From positions 49,228,001 to 49,292,000 of the forward strand of contig NC_083287.1 of the NCBI RefSeq assembly GCF_963506605.1: 64,000 nt of DNA, in the 5' to 3' direction. Positions 3,075 through 59,361 of this stretch are shown here, one piece after another. This stretch comes from Zootoca vivipara. Lineage: Eukaryota. The stretch's first letter is position 1; each line of letters begins with the position of its first letter. The translations under genes and the position numbers were made by a program. The notes beneath the pieces were generated by a model. The model saw nothing but the letters and a program-made list of their open reading frames with translations, was not told the origin of the DNA and did no database searches.

Positions 3075-3575
3075 CAAATCGAGGCAGTACTGTATTGAGT
3101 CTATATATAAAAAAAATCTTTTTAGAATTATGTTGTTTAGCAACCAGAAACACCATAACCAGACACTGGAAAGACCTGTCAGAAGTAAACATGGACCAAT
3201 GGTACCAAACAGTATGGGAAACAGCCTTACTAGAAAAATTAACCAATAAGTTGAAACTGACACGGGGACAAATAGAAGAAGACGGCTTCACCCCGGTATG
3301 GTTCCCCTTTATCACATACACAGCTCAACAAGATAATGACAAAAATCCACCAACAGCATACAAATCAATATGGCTAACCTGATCCAAAACACTCATCCAC
3401 CCCACTCACACACAAAACAAAGACCACCACAGCCAACCACAAAGGAACAACCATATCCTAGGCCAACCCCAACATCTCTCACCAGCAAAGGAACACAAGC
3501 GATCAGCAGAGAACCTACACAAGCGACGCTGACAATACGCCCCACACATATTAAGCAAATACGCCCCACACATAG
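3075..3575 (+). mobile_element. L1/Tx1-type LINE 3' fragment
   Basis: Translation ITRHWK...WYQTVWETALLEKLT...FTPVWFPFITY resembles an L1-clade ORF2 C-terminus, followed by a CA-rich UTR. Confidence 0.65.
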
Positions 3576-3825: not shown

Positions 3826-4497
3826 TGTGTGTGTGTGTTATTAAAGATTAAAGAATATTAAAGATTCTCTTGGTTTACAAAGTATGTGCATTGTCTCTTT
3901 TTCAGGTTGTGTTTTCTACAGATTGATTACATTTGTTGGGAGACAGTGTTGTAGACAGTATAAGGTTGGGGAAGAAAAGCTGGCAGATAGGGGGATAGGG
4001 TGGTAAAACTTATATTCTTTTACTTGGTGTATGTGTGGGGTTTTGTGTCGGCATCACTTGGGAAGTTCTCTTTGTATTCACTTTTATTTCCTTGATAGTG
4101 AGAGAGGTTGAAGAGGGGTGGGGCATGGTTGGTTGTTTTAGTTGGCTGCAGTGAGATTTGTTTGCTTGGGGGGGATTGTTGGGTGAAGCTAGCCATATTG
4201 ATTCATATGCTATTGGTCAGGCATCCCCAAACTTTGGAATGGCAATGGAATCTGGCTTCCTTGCTGGTGATGGGACAGCAACCTTCACTGTAAGTAAGAA
4301 GAACAAGCTAGCTTAGATGGGGCTTCTATCCAGGCTGATTTCAGCAGGCATCCCCAAACTTCGGCCCTCCAGATGTTTTGGTCTATAATTCCCATCTTCC
4401 CCGACCACTGACCCTGTTAGCTAGGGATCATGGGAGTCGTAGGCCAAAACATCTGGAGGGCCACAGTTTAGGGATGGCTGCTGTTGGTGGATTCTTG
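3826..4497 (-). mobile_element. Second, inverted copy of the same L1-type 3' end, interrupted by a hAT MITE
   Basis: The reverse complement of ~4186-4217 plus 4481-4497 matches ~3343-3380 (ATCCACCAACAGCATA..AATCAATATGGCTA). Confidence 0.65.
4218..4480. mobile_element. Composite hAT MITE: extra left TIR, ~110-bp captured segment and a complete 136-bp MITE
   Basis: CAGGCATCCCCAAACTT at both 4218 and 4345; an 8-bp TSD CTATTGGT/CTGTTGGT (7/8) flanks the whole unit. Confidence 0.85.
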
Positions 4498-4750
4498 AAC
4501 AACAACGGAAAAGTCTTGAAAATAATTGGCCTGTTACTTTAACCCTCCTGGACTCCCCTAAATGTTATAAAGGGTGAGTCACTGACAGTGCTGGAACCTG
4601 AGATATGAAAGCCAGGAGCTAAATGGCACCTTAAACCTCGGTTATGGGCGCAACAACGGAATGTCTAGGCACACTTTTTATAACAAAACAGAGCTGAAAA
4701 TGAATGAACTGCAGCTAAAATATTGTGCTCATTTTTCACATGGTCTAGTC

Positions 4751-19916: not shown

Positions 19917-21557
19917 GTAGCCAATTTTCTTCTTCTAAAGGGCTGAAGTTGAAATAGGAATTGCTGCTTAATTATGAATGTGTTTCCAGGGAAATGAGAG
20001 AAGAGCTACCCAAGTCAACCTTTTACAGCTTGCTCATGACCATTTGCATAGTGGCAAACTCATCACTTGGGCGTTTGCATCCCATTGACTGTTCCTAATC
20101 TGGAGATTACTGTGATATGTCACCATATGATGAAATCTTCAGGCAACAAGACTGTCATGTAACTATTACAGTCATCAGAAGATTAATGCGGTCACATGAA
20201 TGCAGCCACTTGAAACTACAAAAAAAACAAGATTAGTTATGGGCGATGCAAACTGGGAACCTTGTTAAAACATGTATTTTCCATAGACTTTGTTGCATGA
20301 CTGCATCAATTTATCCTTAAGATGCAGAGGTAGGGTGGACTCTTGCTTTGCCACCACAGATTAAGAGCTCCTTAATTTTGTAACATGAAAGGATCCACTA
20401 AAAAGAGCACTGGCAGTTTTAGACTTGAACTTGAGTTAAAGCAGCACATCATATATTCACAAGGAAAAATGGGAGCTGAATTGCTGTTTTAGAATATCGG
20501 GGAGGGTATCTGAATGTTTCAATAAAATTGCATTCCTGTCTACCTTCAGGAGTAAAGAAACAGCATGTAGAGGTGAAACTTCTGTAGAGCAAGCTATTTG
20601 GGATTCTGGAAAAAATCTAATTGCAGAGGAAATATATTACGTTAATTGACCAATTGTGGACAATTTGTGCCTGGGAAACGTTGTACTGACAAATACCCTT
20701 TTCATTTGATTTTAGATTTTAAATGTCACATGAGATACAGTACATATCTGACATTATATGAGGCAATGTTCAATTAACTGTCGTATTGCACTTTTAAGAT
20801 GCTTAAGGGACTGCTTGAATCCATTGGAACAAATTTGGAAGGAAGCCCAGTTCCGAATTGTACCTTGTTGGCAAATGACCCTTGATGAACAGAAAAAAAA
20901 TAGAAAGACGAGCATTGGATTCTCCAAGTGTGCCAACTCAGAAATGCCGAGATAGTTTCACACAAATGATTTGCAGCATTCTCATTACCAAAACCTCCGC
21001 TTCTTCGTTCTTTACTATATTTTCCCTGCAACTATTACTTCTGCAGGCAAAAATTCTTAACAAGTTTCAGTACAAGAGGAAAAGAGCTTTTAACATGAAA
21101 AAAATGAAACATCAATAGCAACTAGGTGATAAGAGATTATAATTTTTTAAATAAAGATACTGAAGGGCAACATTTTTGTTCAGGGGACAGTTCTTCCTAT
21201 TCATTCCTTAAATATTGGGGTGCCTTTCTGTGCTACCTTCTAGCTCAATAATGGAAGTACCTTCTGAAAAGCATATTTTCCTCCAAATCAAAATGCAGCT
21301 CCTGGAGCTTATTTGAGTCAACTGCCTCTTAGCATCTGTTAACATCGCCATCTAGTTTCTCAGAAACATTTCCCTGGCCTTCATAGCTTCCAGCTCTGTA
21401 ACTCACTTCACATTGGGTTATGAATTCAGGCTCATGTCCCTGAAATAGCCTCGTAGCCTTCTGAGATGAGACAGCTAATCTGTCCACTCCCAATGCTCAG
21501 GGCAGGTAACAATACTTACAGTGCAACACAAGTAGGTATGAAACCAAATTACTATTA

Positions 21558-21836
21558 CAGTCATACCTTGGTTTAAGTACTCTTCGGTTTGAGTACTTTC
21601 AGTTTAAGTACTCCGCGGACCCGTCTGGAACGGAATAATCCACTTTTCATTACTTTCAACGGGAAAGTTCGCTTCAGGTTAAGTACGCTTCAGTTTAAGT
21701 ACTCCGCGGACCCGTCTGGAACGGATTAATCCACTTTCCATTACTTTCAGTGGGAAAGTTCGCTTCAGGTTAAGTACGCTTCAGGTTAAGTACAGACTTC
21801 TGGAACCAATTGTGTACTTAAACCGAGGTACCGCTG
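21558..21836. mobile_element. Tigger-like MITE with an internal 91-bp tandem duplication
   Basis: CAGTCATACC...GGTACCGCTG termini and TA TSD; units 21601-21691 and 21692-21782. Confidence 0.85.
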
Positions 21837-22298
21837 TATATTTCACTGGTCTCATGCCAGGCCTAACAAAGAGGTCTTCGTTACACTTTGGAAAGCCAAC
21901 CAATTTACACTTTGGCTTGAAACTTCAGCAGCATGGTGGTCTGCAGTGATCTTCCCATGCACTGTGCAAGGTACACAAGGCCCATTCTGAGCGATTTTGG
22001 CTCAAGAGGCAGTTCACATGTTGAGCATCACTTGCATATTGCAAGAAAAAGGAAGGCTAGCAGGTCAGAGTTCAGCAATGAGAGTTGGGTGGGGAAATAA
22101 GGCAATCCTGATTTTTTGTGTTGCTTTTATTGCATCGTGTCACATGCATATCCATCTCAGGCATGCTAGCAATGCTGAGCTACAGCATGTTGTCACCTTT
22201 CCTCTTCTCATCCTTGTTCACTATTCTAAAACAGTTACAGCGGCTGCTGTGCTTTCTACTGCTTGAGACTCTTAATAGCCCCTCTGCCTTCTTTCCAG

Positions 22299-22391
22299 AC
22301 TGCTGTTGACGTCTTCAGAAGGATAATTTTGGAGGCAGAGAAAATTGACGGGGCATCTTCACAAGGGAAGTCTTCATGCTCGGTGATGTGA
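22299..22391 (+). CDS. RHEB: RHEB last coding exon (TAVDVFRRIILEAEKIDGASSQGKSSCSVM*)
   Basis: CTTTCCAG acceptor; ends in the CAAX box CSVM and TGA at 22389-22391. Confidence 0.98.
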   Translation, partial: TAVDVFRRIILEAEKIDGASSQGKSSCSVM

Positions 22392-22790
22392 TTGCCCACC
22401 GAAGGCTGAACACTGAGAATATGTTCTACCTTAAGAAGCAAACTGCCTGTTCCCCCTCACAGCGAAACTACGCTTTTTCTTCTTCTGTTAACCTGAACAA
22501 TATAAAGTCAGTTGGAGACTTTTCCTTCAGATTATGTTAAACTCTGACTCCTGTGCAAAAAAAAAGGCTTCACTTCCATTTTCAAATTTTAAGCAATCAT
22601 ATTTTCAATTTATATATTGTATTTCTTAATATTATGACCAAGAATTTTACTGGCATTAATTTTTCAATGTAGTTGGGTTAGAATAATCATCCAGATAATG
22701 CATATTGTTACACTACTATTAACTAGGCTTGAATATCGGTGTTTCTTTGTGTTAAATGTATACTTGTAAATAAAATAGCTGCAGACCTTT
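22392..22790 (+). other. RHEB: RHEB 3' UTR (proximal isoform)
   Basis: AU-rich, repeat-free stretch after the stop codon, ending at AATAAA 22769-22774; resembles the mammalian RHEB 3' UTR as recalled. Confidence 0.8.
22769..22774 (+). terminator. RHEB: RHEB polyadenylation signal AATAAA
   Basis: Canonical hexamer followed by GT/T-rich downstream sequence. Confidence 0.75.
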
Positions 22791-23213
22791 GTGTGCCCTC
22801 TGCTTAACAGGTTCTTTACATTTTTTTAATGCCGTTTCTGAAAAATACCTAGTCCAGTATGCCACCTGTATGATGGAATGCTTAAACTGAACAATTTCAA
22901 AGGTCAGTTACAGGAAAAGACTGCAGTTTTTTAATTTAACATATTTGGTTGTACTTTCCAGGTTTTGAAGAAGAATTATGGCTTGTTCTTGCGCTTTGAG
23001 CAGTATATTACCTCCCCCTGGCCATAATTGTGGTATATTTACTGCTCCAGTAACGGGTGAACTGAATGCATATTATCTTTTTAAACTCAATCTTGTGAAC
23101 GAGGTTCTCCCCCCGCTGCCAGTATATTTCCTCACTTTCCTGCCAGTATGATCCAGTTTCATCCTCTTCACTCATTTGATGTGGGCCTAAAGCTTTCATT
23201 CCACAATAAACTA

Positions 23214-23447
23214 CAGTGGACGCTCAGGTTGCAAACGTGATCCGTGCAGGAGGCACGTTTGCAATCAGTCTGCACACACGCAGGTTGCGATTCGGTGCTT
23301 TGCGCATGTGCAAAGCGCAATTTGCTGCTTCTGCGCATGCGTGATCGCCAAAACCTGGAATTAACCCATTCCGGTACTTCCGGGTTCGGCGCAGTGCGCA
23401 ACCCGAAAACGCACAACCTGAAGCGTTTGTAACCCAAGGTATGACTC
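23214..23447. mobile_element. Tigger-like MITE, CpG-rich with GCGCATGCG-type motifs
   Basis: CAGTGGACGCTC...GGTATGACTC termini flanked by TA. Confidence 0.75.
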
Positions 23448-25619
23448 TATTAAACATTTAAGATGTCACAGCACTACTCGTCATCCAAAAATGGTACACA
23501 AAAATTGGAAAGCTGGCCAAGCTGATGTTTAGTAACAGACAAATTTTCAGCATCTCAACAGGCTGGGATACTTCAGTTGGGTTGCTGCTCTGTATGCTAT
23601 TCTGAAAAGTGTCTTGACCATTGCATGAATTTTAGGGTGTGCTAATCTAATAATGAAAGCAAAGGCCACAAGAACTTGAGGACCCTGCTGGTCAGAGGAG
23701 AGGCATGTCTTGTCCAGCATTCTGTTTCCAAATGCATTTGGGAAGGTCACAAGTAGGACGTGAGGTCAATAGCCCTCTCCCACAGTTGATCCTCAGTGAG
23801 TGATACTCCACAGCAGCCAATCATAAACCTTTCCGTCAGCTGCCCACATTTCATATTGGGCGTACATTGAAACATGCTAGGGGTTCCCCTTTTCAAATTG
23901 CATGGTTCAGTTCTGATATGAGAACAAGGGTTCTACAGTCGGTAGTTTTGGATTGGATGAATGAGCACAAATCCTTGCTTCGTCATGCGTCCTGTTGGTG
24001 ACCTTGGGCCAATCACAGCTTCAGCCTTCTTGTACCTGAAGGGTTGGTTGTGAAGACAAAATGGTAATACCGGAAAAATAACGAGCTCACAATGGAAGCA
24101 CGCAGCATGGTGCATTGTATTTCTCCATCCAGCAAGCTTTGCCAAGATCCAAGCAATGGAAGTCTGGCACCTGGGGGCCTAGTGCAAGCATTGGAGGGCT
24201 AGGTTTCAAGTCTGCCATTGCCATTAATTCCCTCTTGAGGCTTGGGACCTCCCATTGGCCCAATTTCCCCAACTGTGAAAAAGGAATGGTTATCATTAGC
24301 TCCTTCCCCAGGGGTAATATGATTTAATTAGTTTTGTCTCTAGAGTGCTTTGAATGTATAAAATGTTCCTGCTAATAAATTGCGTGCTGGTACAAAAATA
24401 GCACTCGCTGAGCCAGTTTGATCTCATTCTATATCTGCTGGTTCATATAGGAATTAACTCTAGTACTGCAGGGCGTTTATAAGCAATATAGAATTTTTTT
24501 GGGGGGGTGTACATATGCAATGTGGAAATTATTTTGAAGCTTGGCAATAGAAGTGTATTTTCAGGGCTTGGCTTAACATGAAATTGGTTCCAGCATTGTT
24601 TAATGAGGTCTTCTGATGAAGCAGGACAGCATAATATGGTAGCAAGAAGGTGCTTCTCTGAACATAGCCATTCTGTGCTTTAATACACCATAGGGGCTTG
24701 TTTTCTGTGAGGAAAATGTGAGCACAACACATCTAGCCTCTGCAGAGCCACAGAGGAATTTGCTTTTTGGAAACACTTGTTGGAAGCCTCTAGTTGAGAG
24801 TCGAAGGTCCCATTTCCCCTAAAGAAGGGCAAGTCTGCGTTTGTATGTTGGCTGTTGCTGCAGTCTGGTTCAGATGTAATTCTAAACATCCTTCAGGCCT
24901 GTGTTTTGTGTATTTTCTGTATTAGTGTTTTTATGTTGTGAACTGCCCTGTGACCTTTGGATGAAGGGCAGTATGCAAATAATAATAATAATAATAAGGC
25001 AACTTTCTATGTTCATACACTTTACATACAGTATGCTTCATCTCCAGGATCTTGGGCTCCTTTACTCGTATTTAGTACATTTGTATCTGAGAATCCAGCT
25101 AAAAAGGCTCGTATACAATCATAGCTGTCTAGTTCTCCCCTTTTTTAAGGGAAATTCCCTTATGCTGAATAGGCTTCCTCACGAGAAAAGGGAAAACTTG
25201 ACAGCCATGATACGATTAAAACAAGGCAGTCCCTGCTATAATCTTAAAAAAAGAGAGACACAAGGAAAAGGGGGCGGGGAAGGAAGAGGAAAAAGAGACT
25301 TGAAGCTTTAGATAACTTCCAGTTAAAACAGATAATACCGGACTAGACAGACCAATAGGGTATAGGGCACATTCCTAATTTCCAAGGCATCTTCTGAAGA
25401 CTCACTCTATGGGCTCCAGGAGGAGAGGCTTACATGTGCTGTGTTAAAAGGAAAAGCAGATGAAAATCGGCTTGTTACCTAGTCTAATAAATAAAGCTCC
25501 TCTCTAAAAGGAACTGTAAATGTTCAATGCTCATTGCTCAAATCCCCCAATGAGTGATTCTTTTGTTAAATTGTATGGATTAAATTAAAACTCCCATATC
25601 AGCAGAGAGAGAGGTATGC

Positions 25620-25712
25620 CGTTCTTGCCAGCTAAGCATGAACCATCCCCAGTGTGCATTGTTTGGCAGGCCTTACAAACCCAACCTGGTCTCCCTGCTG
25701 CTGATATATAGT
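25620..25712 (+). promoter_or_regulatory. CRYGN: CRYGN proximal promoter (MARE-like sites, Sox site, TATA)
   Basis: TGCCAGCTAAGCA at 25626-25638 (TGC-N7-GCA); TGCATTGTTTGGCA at 25655-25668 (TGC-N8-GCA containing the Sox motif CATTGTT); TGCTGA at 25699-25704; TATATA at 25705-25710, about 70 nt upstream of the ATG. Confidence 0.65.
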
Positions 25713-25780
25713 AGAGGTTCCCGTGGCTCTGAAAATCCCATTTGGGAGTCCGCCTCTGTGTTAGCAGTTGCCAATGAAAC

Positions 25781-25801
25781 ATGTCTCAGTATTCAGGAAA
25801 A
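25781..25801 (+). CDS. CRYGN: CRYGN exon 1 coding part (MSQYSGK)
   Basis: ATG in AACATG context and GTAAGT donor at 25802; joins exon 2 in phase 0 to give the crystallin N-terminal SGKIT. Confidence 0.9.
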
Positions 25802-26364
25802 GTAAGTAACGTGTTCCTTTTTGTAACTTTGCCTATGTACGAGATCAGAGGCTTTTTTTAAAAAAAGGGAGGAGGAGATGAGCTGGAAAAATAAAAGCTT
25901 TGGATGCCAACAGGAGACAGGATGGCTTAATGGAGCTACGCTTTCCAAAACATTGTGGGGCTGTGTTGCCTTGCAGGATGGGGCTACACAGCTGGGGTGG
26001 TCTGAGATTAAGGGGTGTTCCTTAAAAACAAGTAATCTGGCAACTCCAGAGAAGGAAAAGCATATGAAAGCAAGAGGATAAAGAGGATTGGGAAATACAA
26101 TGAAGTGTGTCTTAATCTAAATACACAATTTAAAAAAATGGTGTTTATAAAAGAAAACCTCGAGGGGCTGCATTGTTAGCCACACACAGTGTTGTAAGCT
26201 GTAATGTCTCATTAAAAGAATACTTCCAGCTTTCAATGAACTCTCTCGTTGAATGCAAAATTAAATCCGTCTGGCAGCGGATTCCATTTGCTTGGAATAC
26301 CGGTGGGTCGTGGGGGCCGCGCAACGGCCGTAGCTCAATGCTTGGAACGTCCTCTTTCCTCCAG

Positions 26365-26613
26365 ATAACTTTCTATGAAGGCAAATGCTTCACAGGCCGG
26401 AAGCTGGAGGTTAGCGGGCCCTGCGACAACTTCCAGGAGCGAGGCTTCATGAACAGAGTCAATTCCATCTGTGTGCAGAGCGGAGCCTGGATCTGTTTCA
26501 GCCTCGCAGACTTCCGAGGCCAGCAGTACATCCTGGAGCATGGCGAATATCCCGGCTTCCACCGCTGGAACGGGCACAATGACCGAATGGGATCCTGCAA
26601 GCCAGTTGGGATG
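26365..26613 (+). CDS. CRYGN: CRYGN exon 2, Greek-key motifs 1+2 (ITFYEGKCFTGRKLEV...GSCKPVGM)
   Basis: CCTCCAG acceptor and GTTAGT donor; 83 codons of a beta/gamma-crystallin domain with gammaN-type FMNRVNSI and HGEY segments. Confidence 0.97.
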
Positions 26614-28055
26614 GTTAGTGCTCCTTTTTTTTTGTCGATGAGTGACTGAACAGGTGCTGTTTATCACAGGGAGTCTCTATTTCCAGGTATCTCACTCTTG
26701 CCCTTTGGGAAGATGTTTGGAATGTTTTCAGCATCATTGTATGTTTTAACAACTTGCCAGAATGGTCATAATTTATTACTTTTCATAAAAATTATGCACC
26801 GCTTGATAGAAGAAAAACCTCAAAGTAGTTTACAAAGTATAAAACAAAATTATCAGTAAAAATAGTAAACAACTACTACTATTATTTAAAACATTCCACA
26901 TGCCTGGGCAGGCTTGTCTGTTCCAGGGGATTAAACTCTTGCCTTCATAGCCCAGGTCTTTGTGCCATCATGTGATCAAGCAAGACAAAGAACAAGAACG
27001 TATCTCCTGGACCTTGGCATCCAATCTGGGTTAGGGGCTGGTGCCTCTGTCTCCCAGTGGTTCTGTTCATACCTGTAGGAACCTGAGTCCCTTGCTTAAC
27101 CTCATGGCTTCTGGACTGTGAGGTTCCCCGGGGTTCCATTGAGTTTCCGGTTGCTGTTTTAAGATCTTTATGAAGTTATTGGGGGAAGTCATCCAGGGAT
27201 TTTGAGCAAGGCCCAATCAGTGTTGGTAACAGCCCACTCTTCAGTGATGATGATGATGATGCCCTACATCTGACGATCACAGAGTGGTCTATCTCACCTC
27301 AATCAGGAGATGCTGTTTAAGTACTTGACCAGTGTTGGGATGGTTGAGGTCCAATAAATTGAAGCTGAAGCCCAATGAGATGGTGGTTCTGTGGGTTGGT
27401 GGTTGAAGGACCAAGTTCATTGCTTGGGGCTGCTCATCAATTCTAAGCTGTCACCTGAGGAGGAGTGGCAAGGCAACTATTTTCTATTGTCTAAGCCTCT
27501 GTTGTCTTCTTCAAACTCCAGTTGGTTCGCAAGTCCCCACACCAGCTGCCTGTGCATTGCCAGGCTCGAATAAACTTAATAATATTGGTGGTGCATAAAG
27601 CCCTGAATAACCTGGAACCCAAGTATCTGAAGGAATAACATACCCCACCCAATCATTAAGATCCACTAGATATGTCCTACTTCAATCTCCTGGCAATAGC
27701 TGTGGGTGGTGATGCATACTCAAGAGTAGACCCATTGTACTTAATGGGCAGGTCTATATTATGTCTATTAAGTGGCTCTACTCTAAGTTGGAAACAACCA
27801 ATAGAACTCAATGGGACTTCTTTTAGACATGTACTGGATTGTGCTTGTTAATTCGTTAGCCCTCCTGCTGCCCTTTTTTTGTAAGGTATTCTGCAAACTT
27901 ACTAGCTGAAAAGCAGAAAACATATTTTTAATACAATAAGACACATACACACCACAGGAATGGAGCTCTCCCTCAAAGTACCTTCAGCAATTTTTAACTA
28001 CAGTACTATTTCCCGTCTCCAGCCTAAATTTGCATTGCAGTGGAAGGTGTGTGTA

Positions 28056-28297
28056 CAGTGGTGCCTCGCTAGATGAATTTAATTCGTTCCACAGGTCTTT
28101 TCTTATAACGAAAAATTCATCTAGCGAATCCCATAGGAATGCATTGAATTTTTTTTTTTGAATTTTTTTTTTGCCCATAGGAACGAATTAATTGAATTTC
28201 AATGCATTCCTATGGGAAACCGTGATTCGCTAGACGAATTTTTCGTAAAACGCATTCGTCTAGTTAAGCAGGGCATTCGTTAAGCGAGGCACCACTG
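28056..28297. mobile_element. Tigger-like MITE
   Basis: CAGTGGTGCCTCGCT/AGCGAGGCACCACTG TIRs, TA TSD and an internal CCCATAGGAATGCATTG palindrome. Confidence 0.85.
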
Positions 28298-28324
28298 TAT
28301 GTGTGTATTTGTGCATCTCTATGT

Positions 28325-28671
28325 GGACCCAGGTGGCGCTGTGGTTAAACCACTGAGCCTAGGGCTTGCTGATCAGAAGGTCGGCAGTTCGAATCCCTGT
28401 GACGGGGTGAGCTCCCGTTGCTTGGTCCCAGCTCCTGCCAACCTAGCAGTTCGAAAGCACGTCAAAATGCAAGTAGATAAATAGGAACCGCTACAGCGGG
28501 AAGGTAAACGGCGTTTCCATGTGCTGCTCTGGTTTGCCAGAAGCGGCTTTGTCATGCTGGCCACATGACCTGGAAGCTATACGCTGGCTCCCTCGGCCAA
28601 TAATGCGAGATGAGCGTACAACCCCAGAGTCGGTCACGACTGGACCTAATGGTCAGGGGTCCCTTTACCTT
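28325..28671 (+). mobile_element. Sauria SINE, full length
   Basis: tRNA-like head with A and B boxes, conserved core and tail; short TATGT duplication. Confidence 0.92.
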
Positions 28672-29345
28672 TATGTACAAGATGGGGAACAGGAGAGAAC
28701 CCCTTCTTTGCTTTTTTTTTGGACCGCCATCAGATGTTTCAGGTATATCTGAGATTCCACAGCCAAAATAATGCCACAAGCTTTCCTCTTCTTCAGCCAA
28801 GTCTTCTCATACATGATTCCATTTATAAATATATTATATCCTCTGTCTGTTGGTTCTTTTTCTTTTTTTCTAAAAAGACTATTATACCTGTCTGCAGACT
28901 CCCTCACAAATACCTAACAAAACTACCGGCGGGAGGAGAGGGAGATTCCCAAAGCGATTTACCTCAATTCACCTTCCAAGAATTGCATAGACAGGATACT
29001 GGAAGCCAAAGCTTGTGTGCTTGTGTTTTTCTTTCTTTCTTTTCCTTTCTTAATAAAGTCACAACTATCCTGAATAAATAACCACAGACTTGACTAGGAA
29101 CAAGGAAAATGTGATTATTGTTTTGTTTGTTTGTTTTAAGGGAAACAGTCTCAAATAGATGTGTGTTTTGGAATTTCCTCCTCATAGTTCCGTTCCTCGT
29201 GGGGTTCTTAATTCATTTCCCATGTATGGATGTCTGGTTCTCTTGCAAATGTCAAAAGTGGCATTCTTGTGGCCTTGTTTTCTTGACCTTGTGCGTGGTC
29301 GTTTCGTGGTTTGTATTTCTTCCGGTGCAGGTTTTATGCTAAAGG

Positions 29346-29481
29346 NNNNNNNNNNNNNNNNNNNNNNNNNNNNNNNNNNNNNNNNNNNNNNNNNNNNNNN
29401 NNNNNNNNNNNNNNNNNNNNNNNNNNNNNNNNNNNNNNNNNNNNNNNNNNNNNNNNNNNNNNNNNNNNNNNNNNNNNNNNN
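29346..29481. other. Assembly gap (136 N)
   Basis: Run of N in CRYGN intron 2. Confidence 1.
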
Positions 29482-30530
29482 GCAGTCACAAGAACAACCC
29501 CTTTCCCCCATCCCAGCTGAAGTTTGAACACTTTCATAGTCTGGCATTAAATTACTCACTGAAAACAGTAATAATAAGAAAAGTACTAACTGCTTGGAGA
29601 ACTTAGCATGACCACATCTTTACAGGCATGTTGCTCCTATTGTAAAGTGTTGGGTCCTTCTCTCCCACCTCCATTTGATTCTCACAACAATCCTGCAAAG
29701 TAGGCTACTCTGAGGGAAACAATTCCCTAGGGAGGTTCATGGCTCAGAACCGTTTTGAACCTGAGTCTCCCTAGCTGAAGACACATTTCTTTATCTTGGC
29801 TTTTGACACTGGATATGCATATTTTAGAACCCGCCTTATTTCTGAATTTTAAAGTTGCTTTAAACTTTTTTTTTAATATCAATGTTATGTTTTAATTGTC
29901 GTGGCCTACCCTGGGACCCAAAGGTAAAGGGTGTGTAATAAATTGTAAACATTGTCCTATCCCAACCTGACACTCTAACCACTACACTGCACTACTTCTG
30001 TATTTAGGACACAAATCAGTGGCAAATTTTGTATATAGTATGGGGGAGGGGGGACAAAGTGTTGCTTGTTTAAACAAACATTTTAATACATTTTTATTGA
30101 TATATATTTTAATGTCGGCTGCTAACCACCTCCTTGAGATCTTGCTATGATTTCAAAAAGTGGAATACCAATTTTTAAATCAGTAGACAAAATAAAATAT
30201 TAAAGTGATGAAACAGTCGCTGGCCGGCGAGTGCTGATGCTGAACCCATTTTCCACCTGTGGCTTTTTGCTGGCTACAGAATTCACTGGCCGGCCTGGGG
30301 CACATTTCTGTCTTTCACTGGTGGGTCAAATTGAAAAAAAAAACACCTCTCTGTGTTGCCTGGAGCTCCTTAGAAGAAGAGAAGGGTGCAAATGTTATTT
30401 TTTCTAAATACATTTTTATTCATATTTTGCAACACCAAGCTCTTTGGTGCAAATTTGGAAAAAGTGAGGTGTCTCTGGGTTTTGCCGCTGCTGTTTCATG
30501 AAGCTAATTTTGGCCTGCCTTTGTCAACAG

Positions 30531-30676
30531 CATGGTGAGCATTACCGGATCGAAGTGTTTGAGGGCAGGCATTTTAGTGGGCGCAGCCAGGAGTTCACCG
30601 AAGATTGCTCTTGCCTGCATAGGCAAGGCTGGGCCAAAAACTGGATCAACGCCATCAAAGTCTATGGGGATGGAGC
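30531..30676 (+). CDS. CRYGN: CRYGN exon 3, Greek-key motif 3 (HGEHYRIEVFEG...IKVYGDGA)
   Basis: CAACAG acceptor and GTAAGT donor; gammaN signature VYGDGA. Confidence 0.97.
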
Positions 30677-31260
30677 GTAAGTAGCTAACGGATGTCAAAA
30701 TAATACAAGGGTAACCTGCAATAAAGGGTTGCAGCATGGAGTCCTCCTTTTAGCCCTCTTCAGAGCACTCCATTCCGTTCATCTTCCAGCTGCCGCCATT
30801 TTCCTATTCCCTGCTCACTGAGCATACTCAGCCCCCATCTTGCTGCTTTCTTTTTTTGGGTGAGCCATTTGCCTCTCAGTGTTCCCTTGAGCATGTTGCT
30901 AACCTCATCTCTCTGTGTCGATGTGTGTGCATGTACGGTGCCATTTTCGCTATGTACCCACTAGCACTTGTATAATTCAGATTGCTATTAATGTACTTGC
31001 TAGTTTGGTCAGTCTGGATGAAACTGGATCCCTTCTGAACCCGCAACTCTGCATCTGCGAGGATAGAATACATACATAAGAGGAAACTTGCCAAACCAGT
31101 TCCTTTGTCAAGGTTTGTCAATGCCAGTTCCTTCGACTGGCCAGTTAATTACCCACCATCTGCATCTTGAAATGGTGAGCTCTGTTGCCATAGAAACAAA
31201 TGAGCAGGCCTTTCCCTACCCACCTCACCTGCCTGATAGATGAGAGTTGTGTATATGAGC

Positions 31261-43357: not shown

Positions 43358-43819
43358 CAGTGTTAAGAATGCATAAACAACGCATATAAACTGTTTTTTC
43401 TTTGACAATGTAGCTGAGTCCAAAGACTGTGTTTCGATGTGTTCCCCCACCCCACCCCGAATCCACTTCAATCCGAATTGAGAGATATAATGACGCATCT
43501 GCATTTTAAAACATTAATGTAGCACAGCCTCCCTGGGTTCGTTTACCCCGCTTACGTCCTGGGAGGTGCAAAGTGGGAGCAGCCAGGCATCACTGTGCAC
43601 CAGCATGCCGCTCATTCACATCCAGGCGCAGTAAGTCGTTCTAGGTTTTTGTTACATGTGAATTCAACCACTGCTTGTACAGGCTCACGTGTCAGGCCGT
43701 GTGTGATGAGGGGCAAACAAGGCAACACAGCTGTACCACAAGCAGTCTTTCCAGAGTTGGCCCAACTCATTTATTTGCCCTAGGTGAAGAGCAAGATGGA
43801 GCAATCCCATGACATATAC

Positions 43820-44198
43820 CAGGGGTGGCCAACTCCCAAGAGACTGCGATCTACACAGAGAGTTAAAAACTGGCAGTGATCTACCCCCTTTTGGGGGGTT
43901 CAGGTCAAAGTTGTTGAGGGTTTTTTTAGGAAGGAAAGCCCTGCTTTTTGGGGTTCACGTATAAGTTCTTGAGCTGCTTTAGGAAGGAGGAAAGCGACTG
44001 AGCTTTTATCTTAGGAAGGAAAGCGCTGTTTTTGGTGGTTCAAGTCATTTTAGGGGTGCAGGACAAAGGTGTTGAGTTTTTTTAGGGGAGCCAAAGTTTT
44101 TTAGCTTCTTTGGGGGGGAGCCACTGATCTTCTAGTGATCTACCACAGACGTCCAGTGATCTACCGGTAGATCACGATCCACCTGTTGGACATGCCTG
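43820..44198. mobile_element. hAT MITE with T/G-rich internal subrepeats
   Basis: CAGGGGTGGCCAAC/GTTGGACATGCCTG termini; perfect TSD ACATATAC. Confidence 0.88.
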
Positions 44199-45183
44199 AC
44201 ATATACAAAAGGCAACTGGAATGGCAATGGAATCTGGCTTGCTGGTGATGGGACAGCAACCTCCACTGTAAGTAAAAAGAACAAGCTAGCTTAGATGGGG
44301 CTTCTATCCAGGCTGATTTCAGCAGGGAGAGGGCACTCTATGGGCACAAGGCCTTGGTGGGCCTCTGGGCATCAGGCTGGTGACCCCTGGGATACTGTTG
44401 ATCATGTACACATGAAGGAAGAGAAAGGAAGTGAGGACTGCTCTGAGGTTTAAGAATGACTGGAAGGGGGCTCCATCTGCTTGGTCAGAAAGTGACTCTC
44501 CTGTTTCACTTGGAGGAAGACAGAGTATGGATGCACATTCCATTCGTCAGAGCAAAACCGCTGATTACACTGTGTAAGTTGAGTCGGAGGACTGTCTGCA
44601 AAACCAGATGAGTTAAAGGAAGTTCATAAAAGGCTCCTTCCCGCATCCATCCATATTCAGACCATGTCATCTTGGGTATGGTATATATGCTATGTTTAGC
44701 AGCAAAACCGCTCCTTGGCCCCCTAGTCAGCGCTGGAAAGGAATCCAGCAGTATCAGGGCACACAGTCTGGAATGAATGGAAACAGATGCTTATGAATCA
44801 GCTAACTGCTGCCTTTCGCGCAGGAGAAGGGAACGATTATTTCTCACTTCAGCAAAACATTTCACTTTTTCTACTTCATCCTTCCAAGCAGCCTTCTGAA
44901 GTGGATTGCGACTGTTAATATCAACTGTGTTTGACCACACACACACACCCTCAATCAAAGGTCTTAACAGGGTAAAATGCAAATAGGTAAAATCAATTAA
45001 ATGCCAATTTTCTAATCAATGTGCAATACAAATTCCTTAAAATGCTCATCCAACAATACAATAAGTACAAGCCCTAAGCCACCCCACTAAAAAAATGAGG
45101 ACCCACAGAAGCAGCTAACTTAACCACCAAAATCCTGGGTCAATAAGAAGTATTAGCCTGGCACCTAAAACCGGACCATGGTG

Positions 45184-47333: not shown

Positions 47334-49263
47334 TTTCTACCAAGTGGACTGGTTGAGGAGAGACAGAATGACCCACCCCTCCCTTCTCCACTAGCCTTCT
47401 GCATGTCCATGCTGGTCTTAGAGAAAGGGCTCATTCCTCCTCAGCAGCCAGCATAGAACATGTTCCACTGATCCTGGCCCAACTGCACTGGCTGCCAATA
47501 GTTTCCGGGCCCAATTCAAAGCGCTGGTTTTACTGGGCACAAGGGTGGGGTGCACACACATTTAAAAAATGCACATTCTGTTTCCAAGCAACAGGTCTCA
47601 TTTCCCAGGTATTTGTCTCTGCTGGGTCCTTAGGCAGGGTAGACGTGCATAAGGGTTCAGATATTCATGTGTAGCAAAACTTCTTAACAGCAGGAGACCA
47701 GAGCAGGATTTCTCACTAGTCTGAGCAACTTGGAGACTCTGCTTCTGGATATTGACCTCTTCTTGCTTTTATCACATGGGATAGACTTGCACTGTGCAGG
47801 GGGCTAATCCTCTAGGAAAGTTAATTCGAATGGCTGGGCACTTCATTGTTTATGATCAGCTTAAGAAGGGGCTTGAGACTGACTGCTTAGGCCTTTAAAA
47901 CATTGCTGGCTCCACTTCCTAGAAAGAACAAAAGAGCCTTTATTGTCTGCAGAAGACCATAGCACTCCTAATCATTTTGGATTTGGCCCCACAAAACAGG
48001 AATCAGAAGTAGTCTTATCCTCTCTCCATTTAAAACTTAATAAGGTTGTTTATTTTGTTTGTAAACATAAATAGTGGTTTTGTCCAAAACCTTTTGCCTC
48101 TTGAAAGCAAAACAAGGCAGGATCAAATGCATATATTTTTTTATACCTCTTTTATTTCGTTCCAGCTGCAATTGAAGCTTGCCGTGGGAGTCTAAATGCT
48201 TATTCACCAAGTGAAAAAGAAGCCAGATTAGCCAGAGGTAATGTTTGTTCAGTCAAAACTTCAGATGCAAGGGAAATACTCATAATACTGTTGTTATAGC
48301 TGTCAAGTGAGAGGACAAAAATTTCTCTAGACTCTTGTAATTCAATAGCTAAAAGATCTTTCTTCAGTGAGCACTGTTGGCTGAAAGGTGCTTCCTTAAA
48401 TTAGTATTGATGGCTTTTGATGACTGGTGGCAGCTTGCTACTGAACACACACTAGTTGTTTTGGTGGGAATTTGACAGAAACAGTTGGAGAGAAGCTAGT
48501 GAAGGAGGCAGAAATCACATTTTGTTTTCCACCAGTTAAATGCTAAAGAGCCTTGTATGGGAGGGTTTCAAATGACATGTTATTTGTTATGGGGGAAACC
48601 AACATGGGTTAAAATCCAGCAGTATCGGTCTTGGCTGTTGCCTGCTTCTTCATGTTCATTTCCTATTTTTGTAAATATAATATTACAATAAAAGATAATT
48701 GAGATTGTTCTCTCACAAGGAAACTGATCCTTTACAGGGCTGCCCCTGAAACTTCCTACTATTTGGTGAAATGGGAGCAAACCCCTGTTTTATTATATCG
48801 ATGGCTGAAATAGCAATATCCAGCCTTTAACGCCCAGCACTGCATGAATAGAACAGTGAGTAATCAGGGTAGACAGCCAGCTATATCAGATTGGAGCTAC
48901 AGATTAGTACACTAAAGCATACATTTTATTTGCAGGGCTGATTTATGGCATGGACCTATGAGCCACTGCATGACACGGTTATTCAGACTCGCTGCTTGGA
49001 TATGTGTTCCTGACTTCCTGACCTGGAATGAAGCACAGCTGGGACTAATTTGGCTGCCTTGTCCTCCTGGCCCTCCAGCCTCTCAGTGGCTCCTGCAAAA
49101 TAAAGCAGGATGAAGAAGAGGCCATTGGTAGATTCATCAGCAGGCTGTGCTCAGAGCACCCCAGTTGCCCCATTAACCAGCCTAGTCCACCCACCTGGTT
49201 TGGAATGAAGTTGAACGTAGTCATCAGGGTTAGCAGCCTTCTTCTCCATTAATTCCTCTAGAC

Positions 49264-49399
49264 CAGGCATCCCCAAACTGCGGCCCTCCAGATGTTTGGG
49301 CCTACAACTCCCATGATCCCTAGCTAACAGGACCAGTGGTCGGGGAAGATGGGAATTGTAGTCCAAAACATCTGGAGGGCCGAAGTTTGGGGATGCCTG
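49264..49399. mobile_element. hAT 136-bp MITE
   Basis: CAGGCATCCCCAAACT TIRs; perfect TSD CTCTAGAC. Confidence 0.92.
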
Positions 49400-49407
49400 C
49401 TCTAGAC

Positions 49408-49543
49408 CAGGCACAGGCAACCTTGGCTCTCCAGATGTTTTGGAACTACAACTCCCATGATCCCTGACCACTGGCCCTGTTAGCTAGCGATCATGGGAGT
49501 TGTAGTTCCAAAACATCTGGCGAGCCAAGGTTGCCTATGCCTG
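49408..49543. mobile_element. hAT 136-bp MITE, sister subfamily
   Basis: CAGGCACAGGCAACC/GGTTGCCTATGCCTG TIRs; TSD CTCTAGAC/GTCTAGAC. Confidence 0.9.
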
Positions 49544-49823
49544 GTCTAGACTAATCCTCTTTAAAAGTCCTTAAAGTTGGTGGCCATCACTGCCTCTTTA
49601 ACTATGCCATGGACAAATTAACTCCTGAATCTTCCAACATTCAACTTCTTTGGATGTTCCCGAGTTCTAGTATAACGAGGGAGGGATAAACACTTTTCAT
49701 TATACACTTTCTTTGCACCATGCATAATTTTATACACCTCTACGTATGTCACCTCTTATTTTTTTAATTCTGTATGAAAATTCACTTTGTATGCAGATAG
49801 TTCTTCTAGGTTTAATTCCCAGA

Positions 49824-53800: not shown

Positions 53801-56098
53801 GGACTGTGCAATTATTGCTGCACCACTAGGAAAACCCTCCTCATAGCTGCACGTATATTACATCTCTGTTCTTAGAGTGGATGCAAGAATCAAGGCTTTG
53901 AATATAATTTATAGCAGGAGCGGCTAAACTCTGTCCCTCCGGACTACAACACTCATTATCCCTGGCCATTGGCCTTGAGCGTTGGGAGTCCACCAGCATT
54001 CGGAGGGCCACATGTTAGCCTCTCCTGGCCCTATATTTTAAACTTCTTTACTGTAAATTGCATTGTGGGTTATTTTTAAATGAAAGGCAGCATATAAATA
54101 CTGTAAGAAAGTAAATAAACGTGGCTTGAGGAGGAATGTGCCAAGCTTCACCCTGTGGCCAGTTTTCATATTGACCCAGGCTGCATTCAAGATAATAGGA
54201 GCGGTTCAGGAACACAGGGCCCAGGAAGCTGCCTTATACAGAGCCAGACCATTGGCTCATCTTGCTCAGTATTGTCTGCACTGACTGGCAGCAGCTCTCT
54301 AGGATTTCAGACATGAGTCTTTCCTATCCTTATCTGGAGATGCTGAGGATTGAACCAGCCCCTCCCTCAGGGGAATAAATTACTGCCATATGATGGAATG
54401 AAAAGATGGATGGACCCTTATCTGTATGTTTTCCTTTTGCCGCTTCTTCTGGCTGCTGAAATAGGGCTGCCAGGTGCTTCACAATTTACTGTTTTATCTT
54501 TGCCAATCCCAGGCAGGAAGCAAAACTAGGAAGTGTATTGAGTTCTTGATGGGCTGTGATAGATTTTGCTGGCAGGCTGTGTTTGGCTTCCTGGGTCACA
54601 AATTGTGTAGGCAGAGTTTGCTATGACAGGCTTCCCTTTGGCTTCGAGATATTAGCCCGGGCAGCCTTGTGCAGATTAAAGACAAACCCCATGGTATCTA
54701 GAGACTATTTTCTCTTGCGAATTGGATCAAGGAGTTGGGGAGACACTTGCTGGGATAAATACTTGCTACCCGTGCTGCCCTCCCACTGAGATTTATTGCA
54801 GAAATGGTTTTGTATGTGTGTTTCCACAAAGGAATATACTACGGTAATCTGAGGCAGCTCTGTGCCCCCCCCCCGGCCCACATATTTTCAGTATCCTTTA
54901 ACCTTTGCCAAAGAATTGCAAGCATTTTGAAAACCTGGATTTTTGAAGCAGGATAAGTGAATGCAAACTAAGGATATGCATAATATTTGCAATGTCTATT
55001 CTGGTCACAGAATTTGATTTTCTTTGGCACAACCTTAGCGCAGCCTTGGCTTTTATTGAAATGACAGCAGCTAGCGTCAAAATAATTTGTCTTCCCTTTA
55101 GCTTTTGGACACTTGTGAGTAGCAACCACTATTTTGTGGTGAGGGAGATCAAGGAAAAACATATGGAATAAGCTACAGAGTTTGTTGCTTGAACTCTTAG
55201 CCATAACTATAGCCCTCCATTCTCCAAGGTGATGTAGGTGCATCATTCAATATAAGTTTGCCTAAACTCGGCAGGGCAGCTTCCGAGACTCCAGATTGCT
55301 AAGGAACACTGGTAGCAAAGTCTACTCTCATTTTGCATCTGAGAAGAGGCATGCCCAGAGCAGTGAAAATCACAGACAGCAGGGAAGGGAAAGAAATTAT
55401 GTTGTTTGTCTGCATCTGATATGATTGCATGATCGGATCATTTAATCACACCTGATCAGCAGAATTACCTGTTCTCAAGGAAGGCATGCCCAGAGCCTCA
55501 GACAAGCCTCCTTTAGGCACAGTAAGTAGTTTGTCCAAGTCATACCAGAACGCTCTGGCATACAATTTGGGAATAACTGTAGTAGAATAATAGAATTGTG
55601 GAGTTCTTATTCTGTTTCAGCTGAAAGCTTACATGTGGAAAAACAGGGTCACTCCAGTGGGCTTTAGTCAAAAGTCTGGCCATGTTTTTAACCAGGCAAA
55701 GTTTCCAGATATTTTTCCAGGGTTTATTTTCCAGGGTTATTCTCATGTTACAATAAACAATGAAATGTTTAATATAATGAGTTTGCTCACGGGGGGTGGG
55801 GAGGCACAGGGGTTGGCCAGCTTAATGGTTACGCTTCTGGCTAATATGGCTGTGTGTCTGAGCAATCTACTGTAGTATCATTTGTTATCATGGTGTCGTT
55901 GCTCTTATCATTATTAATACATGTTTTTTTCCCCGTAGAGACCGCAACATCCCCCTGCTGTTTGTTTCTGCGCCAAAGATGATCCTTGACGTTAGCTTGA
56001 TGCAGCCTGCTGTTTTAAGGCCTACTCCTGATCCTTGTTTGGCTCGGACCCTATGAGACTCTCCGCCCCAGTTCCTGCCTTGTTGTGGAACCCGCAGG

Positions 56099-56261
56099 AT
56101 GGGGAGCAGTAGTTCAGCACTGAAAGTTTGCACTGAACACCAGGGAGGCATCAACTGGCTGAGCCTCAGCCCAGACGGCCAGTGGCTCCTGACAGGTAGT
56201 GAAGATGGCACTGCACGGCTCTGGAGCACTGCAGACAGCCAGTGCAGGGCCCATTTTCAAG
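56099..56261 (+). CDS. WDR86: WDR86 first coding exon (MGSSSSALKVCTEHQGGINWLSLSPDGQWLLTGSEDGTARLWSTADSQCRAHFQG)
   Basis: WD40 repeat matching the WDR86 N-terminus; GTAGGG donor at 56262. Confidence 0.95.
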
Positions 56262-56386
56262 GTAGGGGAAACCTTCCCTTAGCCACTGATTCTGGGGTGC
56301 AGCCTGTGGCAAACTTCCTCAGTCAAGATGGGAGCGGGGCAAAATGACCGCATCTGAGGTGATTTAACCTTGGTTACTCCCTGTCT

Positions 56387-56742
56387 GGGATGAGGGTGGC
56401 GCTGTGGGTAAAACCACAGACCCTAGGGCTTGCCGATCAGAAGGTCGGCGGTTCGAATCCCCGCAACGGGGTGAGCTCCCGTTGCTCGATCCCAGCTCCT
56501 GCCAACCTAGCAGTTCGAAAGCACCTCAAAGTGCAAGTAGATAAATAGGTACCGCTCCAAGCAGGAAGGTAAACGGCGTTTTCCTGTGCTGCTCTGGTTC
56601 GCCAGAAGCGGCTTTGTCATGCTGGCCACATGACCTGGAAGCTGTACACCGGCTCCCTCGGCCAATAAAGCGAGATGAGCGCCGCAACCCCAGAGTTGGT
56701 CATGACTGGATCTAATGGTCACAGGTCCCTTTCCCTTTCCCT
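56387..56742 (+). mobile_element. Sauria SINE, full length, in the WDR86 intron after the first coding exon
   Basis: Head, core and tail present; 13-bp TSD TTACTCCCTGTCT. Confidence 0.93.
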
Positions 56743-57200
56743 TTACTCCCTGTCTATGACAACTGAGAATTCAGGGATTATCGCTGATTGCAAGGAAGAA
56801 AACAAAGGCTAGCTATGTAAATGGATTAAAATTAATAGATGAGAAGATGATTAAAGAAGAATGAAGTAGCAACATCAGGAAGCAATGGACATATGTTTGT
56901 AACAGGAGCGGGAAACCTAATTACTTTAAAAATTTGTACTGTATTGAATTTAAATAATTTGGATTGATTTGTTAAGGAGAGCAATTGTCTGGGGGGGGGG
57001 AAGAGACCCTGCATAAGGACATATTTATATCACAGATTCAAAACAAGTTAAGCAGACATCTCTCCCTTTCCTGGCAATCCAGGGTATTGTAGTTCTTCAA
57101 GTGGTTGCAGATCTGTAGATAATTCCAGGCACTGACAATCACACCTCCCAGGAATCCTTTCAGGGAAGTCCTGACAGCCTAGCATAAGATCAGTACAAAG

Positions 57201-57336
57201 CAGGCATCCCCAAACTTTGGCCCTCCAGATGTTTTGGCCTACAACTCCCATGATCCCTAGCTAACAGGACCAGTGGTTGGGGAAGATGGGAATTGTAGTC
57301 CAAAACATCTGGAGGGCCGAAGTTTGGGGATGCCTG
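57201..57336. mobile_element. hAT 136-bp MITE
   Basis: CAGGCATCCCCAAACT TIRs; perfect TSD GTACAAAG. Confidence 0.92.
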
Positions 57337-57608
57337 GTACAAAGGTTCTTTCAGATCTGCCACAGTAATTGATTTAAGAGTGTGATGCAAACCTTCCTGT
57401 TATAAGACCAGAGAAGGGAAGCCTGTGGTCCTCCAGAGGTTGCAGGACTGCAGTCATCCCTGGACACTGGCTATGCTGCCCTGGGGCTGATGGGAGCCGA
57501 AATCCAACAACATCTGAATGTGGCTACATTCCTGTTACAAAAATCTCCTTTTGTAGTTTTTGGTAAATTTGTACTGATCGTTTTTAGTTCTGTATATTTT
57601 TTCCCCAG

Positions 57609-57750
57609 GACATGAAAGCTACATCACATTTTGCCACTTAGAAAATGAAGCTGCTTTTACATGTAGTGCGGATCACACAATTCGAAAGTGGGACGTGATG
57701 ACAGGCCAGTGCCTGGCAATTTACCGAGGGCACACATCGATTGTGAACAG
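57609..57750 (+). CDS. WDR86: WDR86 coding exon 2 (HESYITFCHLENEAAFTCSADHTIRKWDVMTGQCLAIYRGHTSIVNR)
   Basis: TTCCCCAG acceptor and GTATGT donor; GH...WD repeat; phases 1/2 are consistent with the flanking exons. Confidence 0.96.
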
Positions 57751-59005: not shown

Positions 59006-59248
59006 CAGTGGTACCTCTACTTACGAATTTAATGCGTTCCGAACACACATTTGTAAGTCGGAAAAATGTGTAAGTCGAATCCCATAGGAATGCATTGGGA
59101 GAAAAAATTCGTAAGTAGAAGCAACCCTATCTAAAAATTTGTAAGTAGAAAAAATCCTATCTAAACCGCATCCAAGATGGCGGACTGAGCTCCATTCATA
59201 AGTAGAAACATTCATAAGTAGAGTTATTCGTAAGTAGAGGTACCACTG
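59006..59248. mobile_element. Tigger-like MITE
   Basis: Long CAGTGGTACCTCTACTTACGAAT TIRs and TA TSD. Confidence 0.88.
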
Positions 59249-59361
59249 TATAGGATTGCATGCTGAGAGTCTAAAGCACAAACATTATAAGGGCAGGCAG
59301 AAGGAGCTGGGGAAAAAACTTCGAACTCTTTTGACATGTGGCTTATCCCCCCCCCCAACAG

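What the first reader, a model, noticed from the sequence alone, without database searches (positions are those of the whole stretch)
4218..4480. hAT MITE carrying ~110 bp copied from a site 40 kb away (Pack-like capture or templated insertion)
Seen: 4235-4348 matches 44217-44326 with only 2 substitutions and one 4-bp indel. It sits between a 17-bp left TIR (4218-4234) and a complete 136-bp MITE (4345-4480). One 8-bp TSD (CTATTGGT/CTGTTGGT) brackets the whole unit, and the host L1 fragment reads through across it. The right junction shares CAGG with the MITE start, and the left junction has TGG-type microhomology. Inference: a template switch during insertion or gap repair copied nearby cis DNA and then re-primed at the TIR. 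The product has three transposon ends and could still be mobilised with its cargo. Such capture is well known for plant Pack-MULEs and is less familiar for vertebrate hAT MITEs.
Basis: partly seen in the sequence, partly recalled or inferred. Interest (0 to 1): 0.72.

Follow-up and report, generated by a model that had tools for sequence, protein, structure and literature searches.

The report
Repair scar inside a lizard mini-transposon
A short jumping-DNA copy here carries 110 bases duplicated from a site 40 kb away, one of at least 19 such units in this genome, likely left by DNA-break repair that copies nearby sequence; none was seen to have spread with its cargo.

Summary
Confirmed. The unit is an 8-bp TSD, a 17-bp TIR stub, 110 bp copied from 44217-44322, a complete 136-bp hAT MITE and a second TSD. 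The cargo has two genomic hits. The left junction occurs in contigs of two other samples. Three related species hold an intact, empty donor site.

It is not unique. Exact-TIR scans found 19 units of this build. All 15 traced donors lie on the same chromosome, 0.6-422 kb away (median 19 kb). In 11 of 15 the cargo is the flank of another family member, and 17 of 19 cargos end in a hAT target motif. This points to break repair: a broken MITE end invades a nearby paralogue, overruns into its flank and is end-joined to the stub.

The unit in question is the exception. Its donor has no MITE, only a 4-base match (CAGG), so a secondary microhomology switch is inferred. No cargo was found remobilised, and this unit's right TIR has two mismatches. 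It is a new variant of repair-mediated duplication, not a demonstrated Pack-element. Whether transposase caused the break is open.

The parts
4030..4217 (.). Host repeat fragment (identity as L1 not tested) into which the MITE inserted; reads through the empty site
   Evidence: 69% match to inverted paralogue 3340-3550, across a single TSD copy; raised read depth
4210..4217 (+). Left target-site duplication (one derived substitution)
4218..4234 (+). Stub: MITE bases 1-17 (1-20 if the TGG overlap is counted)
   Evidence: identical to family majority
4235..4344 (+). Cargo, 110 bp, copy of 44217-44322; keeps the ancestral 4-bp and the ancestral G
4345..4348 (+). CAGG shared by the donor (44323-44326) and the MITE start: right-junction microhomology
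4345..4480 (+). Complete 136-bp hAT MITE, 8 substitutions from family majority, 2 of them in the right TIR
4481..4488 (+). Right target-site duplication (ancestral form)
44217..44326 (+). Donor: single-copy, no MITE, no excision footprint; lost 4 bp and changed one base after copying

Best explanation
The unit is a hAT MITE carrying a 110-bp copy of DNA from 40 kb away between a duplicated left end, likely produced when a double-strand break in the MITE was repaired by synthesis on nearby templates and closed by microhomology end joining. Inferred steps: (1) the MITE inserted normally and made the 8-bp TSD; (2) it broke in its left part; (3) the 3' end of the right fragment invaded a homologous copy (sister chromatid or paralogue) and rebuilt the left TIR; (4) at the TIR end it switched, through the 4-base CAGG match, to the 44.3-kb site and copied 110 bp; (5) the new strand was joined to the left fragment, trimmed to 17-20 bp, through 3-4 bases of microhomology. 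In most sister units step 4 needs no switch, because the invaded paralogue's own flank is simply read on. Shown: structure, direction of copying, cis proximity, recurrence, donor MITEs. Inferred: the break, its timing and cause, and the order of strands. The product is most likely inert.
For: (a) Recurrence: 13 units among the 66 hits (65 examined; reversed-pattern control 0), plus 6 from the longer-gap scans, each with an outer TSD of at most 1 mismatch. (b) Donors: 15 of 19 traced, all on the same chromosome, in both orientations. Of the 6 searched genome-wide, 5 were found, at 19, 21, 40, 40 and 422 kb. (c) Donor MITEs: 11 of 15 donors continue straight into a family member, and 9 of those have their own TSD equal to the cargo's last 8 bases. 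17 of 19 cargos have TA at positions 4-5 of that 8-mer, against 5.3% background and 24/29 in ordinary TSDs. (d) The acceptor had its own element: the stub or far part differs from the donor MITE in L041, L065, L108 and L109, while L109 shares five donor variants up to position 85 and L065 shares the whole inner copy, as conversion tracts would. (e) Left joints show 2-4 bases of microhomology. (f) L057 shows a secondary microhomology switch to a MITE-free site, and L055 and L222 show fold-back onto the own right end. (g) For this unit: donor empty and unscarred in three other species, CAGG frequency 0.56%, and its junction 8-mer has the lowest target score of the 22 scored. (h) Size and hallmarks match repair-mediated duplication (PMC2671141).
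Against: Dating does not separate the two events. My first test, that the cargo is younger than the MITE, failed: 8 substitutions is not an outlier, as 11 of 52 copies have 7 or more non-CpG changes. Stubs are shorter than uniform breakage predicts (13 fully ascertained cases, p=0.03), which fits an end-linked lesion. Two sister units (L141, L224) have empty donors with no microhomology at all, so a lost donor MITE is a real route and could apply here. A switch exactly at TIR bases 1-4 is partly an artefact of how units were found. One low-depth contig (X15, depth 5.8) runs from the acceptor's left junction on into the donor's right flank; I read it as a graph chimera across the 50 identical bases but did not exclude a recombinant allele.
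Confidence: 0.6

Rival explanations
1. Made at insertion. After strand transfer, gap filling from the target 3' end ran 17-20 bases into the element, switched to the donor, and rejoined the element's 5' end.
For: Stub lengths skew short: 15 of 19 are 30 bp or less; p=0.03 in the 13 fully ascertained cases. Captures are about as old as ordinary insertions (2.5% vs 3.4%). The inner element starts at base 1, where the integration gap lies (established hAT chemistry, recalled).
Against: A microhomology jump from the stub side has no reason to land 40-370 bp upstream of another family member, yet 11 of 15 donors do. In L065 the inner copy equals the donor copy while the stub has 3 differences in 50. 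Ascertainment favours short stubs.
Confidence: 0.2
2. Same repair route, but primed by homology. The donor carried a MITE after base 44322 on the haplotype used as template, and that allele was later lost; the CAGG match is coincidence.
For: This is the rule in the cohort (11 of 15). L141 and L224 have empty donors ending in a TA-centred 8-mer with no microhomology. 5 of 29 ordinary TSDs lack the central TA.
Against: It needs a 0.56% coincidence and a poor target 8-mer. No MITE or footprint at the donor in three other species or in sample X15.
Confidence: 0.12
3. Composite insertion by alternative (sister-chromatid or reversed-ends) transposition with aborted re-replication, as for maize Ac.
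For: The architecture is the same: TSD, truncated end, microhomology joint, donor flank, full element. Maize solo-CIs lie 13-563 kb from the donor (PMC4270019 passages).
Against: It predicts that the full element is the donor's copy and that the donor bears a footprint. Inner copies lack donor subfamily markers (L041) or the donor's far end (L108), stubs differ from the donor (L065, L109), and this donor has no footprint. 11 donors still hold their element, 9 with the TSD intact.
Confidence: 0.05
4. Assembly artefact or ordinary dispersed repeat.
For: No listed contig spans the right junction; one X15 contig joins the acceptor's left side to the donor's right side.
Against: Two hits only. Both versions, with their three distinguishing changes, assemble separately at similar depth in two other samples. 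The cargo keeps ancestral states that the donor lost. One TSD brackets the unit.
Confidence: 0.02

Closest known systems
Repair-mediated duplication (Pace, Sen, Batzer, Feschotte 2009, PMC2671141; parts 1-5 of 8 read, plus methods passages)
   Same: 50-620 bp single-copy insert inside a TE, donor on the same chromosome, microhomology, and in some cases a short duplication at the joint; SDSA proposed; seen in mammals, chicken and zebrafish.
   Different: Their donors are mostly within 5 kb (824 of 1,136); here 11 of 15 are 5 kb or more away, median 19 kb. Here the donor is usually a paralogue's flank and the downstream element is full length. Their filter (each TE half under 95% of consensus) would have dropped these units.
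Maize Ac/fAc composite insertions (PMC4270019; 10.1101/2020.01.07.897926; passages)
   Same: hAT ends outermost, 8-bp TSD, donor-flank DNA inside, microhomology joint, nearby donor.
   Different: CIs are 5-24 kb, derive both ends from the donor locus, and leave footprints or reciprocal deletions. Here units are 0.2-0.55 kb and the acceptor's own element is involved.
Pack-TYPE elements incl. Pack-hAT (PMC8903248, passages); Pack-MULEs (recalled)
   Same: Host DNA between TIRs under one TSD; neighbouring same-family insertions supply the cargo.
   Different: Their model is joint excision of neighbouring insertions and remobilisation as multi-copy clusters. Here the donor stays in place, the copy is conservative, and no cargo has spread.
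Anole hAT-HT2_AC non-autonomous families and hobo_AC (PMC3014272, section 8 read)
   Same: TIR matches hAT-HT2 at 14/16 with an NTCTAGAN-type target. hobo_AC shows capture of genomic DNA and inter-element recombination in a lizard.
   Different: This 136-bp family is not in that table. hobo_AC cargo is kilobases long and amplified, and its donors were not traced in the section read.

Membership tests
hAT MITE (Charlie/hAT-HT2-like) | 8-bp TSD | tested here: met
hAT MITE (Charlie/hAT-HT2-like) | Short TIRs, non-coding, high copy, TA-centred target | tested here: met
   16-bp TIR, 14/16 to hAT-HT2_AC; tens of thousands of copies from read depth; TA in 24/29 TSDs; a sibling folds as a hairpin, z -14.5
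hAT MITE (Charlie/hAT-HT2-like) | Cognate autonomous transposase in the genome | not tested
Repair-mediated duplication | Insert of 50 bp or more with exactly one other genomic copy | tested here: met
Repair-mediated duplication | Microhomology, filler, deletion or short duplication at joints; no poly(A) | tested here: met
Repair-mediated duplication | Donor within 5 kb (the authors' ad hoc cut-off for confident cases) | tested here: not met
   40.0 kb; they estimate that part of the more distant cases are also genuine
Repair-mediated duplication | Pre-event allele (uninterrupted TE) at the orthologous site | not tested
   both read-laying runs were used; other species were laid on the donor only
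Pack-TYPE / Pack-hAT | Host DNA between outermost TIRs under one TSD | tested here: met
Pack-TYPE / Pack-hAT | Cargo moved on with the element (copies at new sites) | tested here: not met
   acceptor plus one near-identical donor each; the twin L106/L107 shares flanks
Pack-TYPE / Pack-hAT | Gene-derived cargo | tested here: inconclusive
   no stop-free frame of 75 aa or more covers the donor and no Pfam hit near it; no transcript data laid
Alternative-transposition composite insertion | Full element and stub descend from the donor locus | tested here: not met
   no element at this donor; mismatch in 4 of 7 sister units compared
Alternative-transposition composite insertion | Excision footprint or reciprocal rearrangement at the donor | tested here: not met
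   no gap across 44320-44326 in X6 contigs; hidden gaps in X5 and X10 sum to insertions only (by arithmetic on piece lengths)

The most novel reading that the evidence does not exclude
hAT transposase itself makes the lesion at element ends, and a dense young MITE family thereby routinely copies its neighbours' flanks across tens of kilobases into three-ended, TSD-intact units: the birth intermediates of vertebrate Pack-hAT elements, caught before they spread.
Probability: 0.18. Interest if true: 0.68.

Novelty: new variant of a known kind. Interest (0 to 1): 0.42.

Why it matters
The single unit is probably neutral. The cohort matters more. It gives at least 19 germline repair events in a reptile with donor, acceptor and direction known, which shows how far a broken end searches (about 1-40 kb, once 422 kb) and that young repeats act as landing pads. 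It offers a route by which non-autonomous DNA transposons could acquire host sequence, the step that is inferred but rarely caught for Pack-elements and anole hobo. The standard interrupted-TE pipeline would miss these units, so other repeat-rich vertebrate genomes probably hold uncounted cases.

Tried and rejected
Cargo younger than MITE: suggested by 8/136 against 2/106, rejected after the 52-copy sample and the Poisson check (P=0.28).

Donor CAG-CAG as an excision footprint: rejected, as other species carry it without a gap.

A subfamily explaining the MITE's private changes: best sibling 130/136 among 40 scored of 2137 candidates; none found.

Remobilised twin L106/L107: flanks shared over about 2 kb, so a segmental duplication.

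Rows dropped before the count of 19. From the 66 hits: copies of the unit's own left flank, direct TIR repeats, tandem arrays (L066-L073), fold-backs (L055, L222), chance 10-mers (L209, L210, L213, L217, L231, L232) and unclear cases (L058, L211, L215, L216, L221, L229); one hit (C10:73730) was not fetched. From: only 100 of 540 hits were listed, 9 were picked by eye, and L110-L113 were rejected. From: 5 of 10 were rejected and 3 were already known.

Donors not found: L038 (old repeat; none within about 60 kb); L143, L219 and L228 (none within 45 kb).

A ~40-kb preferred distance (this unit, L041, L141, L226): not upheld, as the 15 distances spread from 0.6 to 422 kb, and nine donors could only have been found within the 1.5 to about 50 kb fetched.

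Earlier-finding look-ups returned nothing. The lack of contig cover at 4504-4567 in X16 and X19 is not taken as evidence.

Full report
Observation. 4235-4348 matches 44217-44326 at 108/114 with two substitutions and a 4-bp gap. A 17-bp copy of the MITE's left end precedes it, a complete 136-bp element follows (4345-4480), and an 8-bp TSD with one mismatch brackets the whole. A paralogue of the host repeat at 3340-3550 carries one copy of the target and reads on into the right flank; whether that repeat is L1 was not tested. The cargo has two hits in the 1.44-Gb genome.

Reality and direction. In two other samples of the species, contigs cross the left junction without differences and separate contigs carry the donor version at similar depth, which fits fixation or high frequency. 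No listed piece crosses the right junction. Three related species, about 3-5% diverged over the donor, all have the 4 extra bases and the G at 44276. The cargo therefore keeps ancestral states and the donor mutated after copying. Their contigs show no deletion at the donor's right end and no TIR-bearing loose end among those listed (3 hidden), so the donor is an intact empty site and the capture likely arose in this lineage. Against this tidy picture, one low-depth contig from sample X15 joins the acceptor's left junction to the donor's right flank; a graph chimera across 50 identical bases is the simplest reading.

The family. The MITE has 16-bp TIRs matching anole hAT-HT2_AC at 14/16 (PMC3014272 table 1), TA-centred 8-bp targets (24 of 29) and a hairpin fold (sibling copy). 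Read depth of about 21,000-31,000 per bin against about 1x coverage implies tens of thousands of copies; 52 full copies lay in 784 kb of non-random regions. The host copy has 8 substitutions, within the family range, two of them in the right TIR.

Recurrence. Patterns for two same-direction TIRs gave 13 and 28 hits, a superset of 66 with a 10-base first TIR, 540 for gaps of 121-400 of which 100 were listed, and 10 for an enriched pattern; reversed-pattern controls gave 0. After dropping own-flank duplications, arrays, chance matches and independent neighbours, 19 events have the same build: outer TSD with at most one mismatch, stub of 11-67 bp, foreign cargo of 41-365 bp, then an element with both ends. 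This is a lower bound, because exact TIRs were required and the long-gap list was cut.

Donors. Fifteen were traced, all on the same chromosome, in both orientations, 0.6-422 kb away, median 18.8 kb. Nine of these could only have been found within the 1.5 to about 50 kb fetched, but five of the six cargos searched genome-wide also mapped in cis. Eleven donors continue directly into another family member, nine with their own TSD equal to the cargo's last eight bases. Seventeen of 19 cargos end in a TA-centred 8-mer against 5.3% background. The donor was not the nearest family copy in any of the 8 cases checked: 1-8 copies were nearer. Four donors have no MITE: L057 (microhomology with its own TSD), L141 and L224 (target-like end, no microhomology), and this unit (poor target, CAGG microhomology).

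Which element is which. Variant comparison in seven units shows that the acceptor had its own element. In L041 the inner copy lacks the donor's subfamily markers. In L108 it lacks the donor's far end. In L109 it shares five donor variants up to position 85 while the stub lacks the first of them. In L065 the inner copy equals the donor copy while the stub has three differences. L044, L063 and L088 are uninformative, and L109's far-end differences could be later conversion in the donor. This fits one-sided invasion of a paralogue with a conversion tract of varying length, and it speaks against the donor element having jumped as a composite insertion.

Mechanism. The most economical account is a break inside a MITE, invasion of a nearby copy by the right-hand end, synthesis through the TIR into that copy's flank, release, and end joining to the trimmed left fragment at 2-4 bases of microhomology. 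Coupling of homologous invasion to end joining is established knowledge (recalled). For this unit one more step is inferred: after rebuilding the TIR, the end re-primed on CAGG at 44323-44326. L057 shows such a secondary switch. The cause and timing of the break are open. Cargo-donor divergence (49/1938) matches ordinary TSD divergence (10/296; p=0.43), and stubs skew short (p=0.03), so a lesion made by transposase at or soon after insertion remains possible.

Mobility. No cargo was found at a third site (two weak partial hits for L108), the one twin is a segmental duplication, and this unit's right TIR is damaged. Pack-like spread is possible in principle and unobserved.

Comparison with print. 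The closest class is repair-mediated duplication (PMC2671141; parts 1-5 of 8 and methods passages read; supplements not opened, and their Table S1 may hold similar cases). It differs in donor distance and in excluding full-length TE halves. Maize composite insertions (PMC4270019 and 10.1101/2020.01.07.897926, passages) share the outline but not the lineage pattern. Pack-hATs (PMC8903248, passages) are explained by joint remobilisation. Anole hobo_AC captures genomic DNA (PMC3014272, section 8 and passages). PMC12312487 was seen as passages only and added nothing. Nine searches, seen as listings, showed no paper on paralogue-primed flank capture by a vertebrate MITE; the library lacks most subscription journals, so this is weak evidence of novelty.

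Verdict. Real, recurrent and explained by break repair: a new variant of a known kind, interest 0.42. The bolder reading, transposase-driven birth of Pack-hAT units, has probability about 0.18.

Noticed in passing
window 43820-44198: A different 379-bp hAT element with a perfect 8-bp TSD (43812-43819, 44199-44206) ends 18 bases before the donor's left boundary; the copied tract stops just short of it. It may be absent in two related species, whose contigs run 257-415 bp past 44197, but this was not shown.
   Followed up: partly
window 49256-49558: Two MITEs of different subfamilies side by side sharing one target (three near-identical copies of the 8-mer): repeat insertion at a regenerated site.
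   Followed up: no
L066-L073 (G000:C19:25145-27960 and 179021-179637): Tandem arrays built from a 100-bp piece of this MITE near the start of contig C19: a MITE-derived satellite; L073 closes with the target 8-mer that precedes L072.
   Followed up: no
L055, L222: TIR stub followed by an inverted copy of the element's own right flank: fold-back repair on the palindromic element.
   Followed up: partly
L135:1634-1769: The donor MITE's two ends share the same derived variant, suggesting end-to-end conversion within the hairpin.
   Followed up: no
window 26134-26646 and 56057-59848: A beta/gamma-crystallin exon and WD40-repeat exons on the + strand; the pair recalls the CRYGN-WDR86 neighbourhood (recalled, not tested). 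The crystallin exon lies between acceptor and donor, so recombination between the two direct 110-bp copies would delete it.
   Followed up: no
run X15, record 3 (laid on window 44217-44397): Contig joining the acceptor's left junction to the donor's right flank; chimera or 40-kb deletion allele.
   Followed up: no
L141 and L224 donors (G000:C6:74718918-74719217; C10:39121957-39121997): Empty donors with target-like ends and no microhomology; the L224 cargo is 41/41 identical, so recent and worth checking for a segregating donor MITE.
   Followed up: partly
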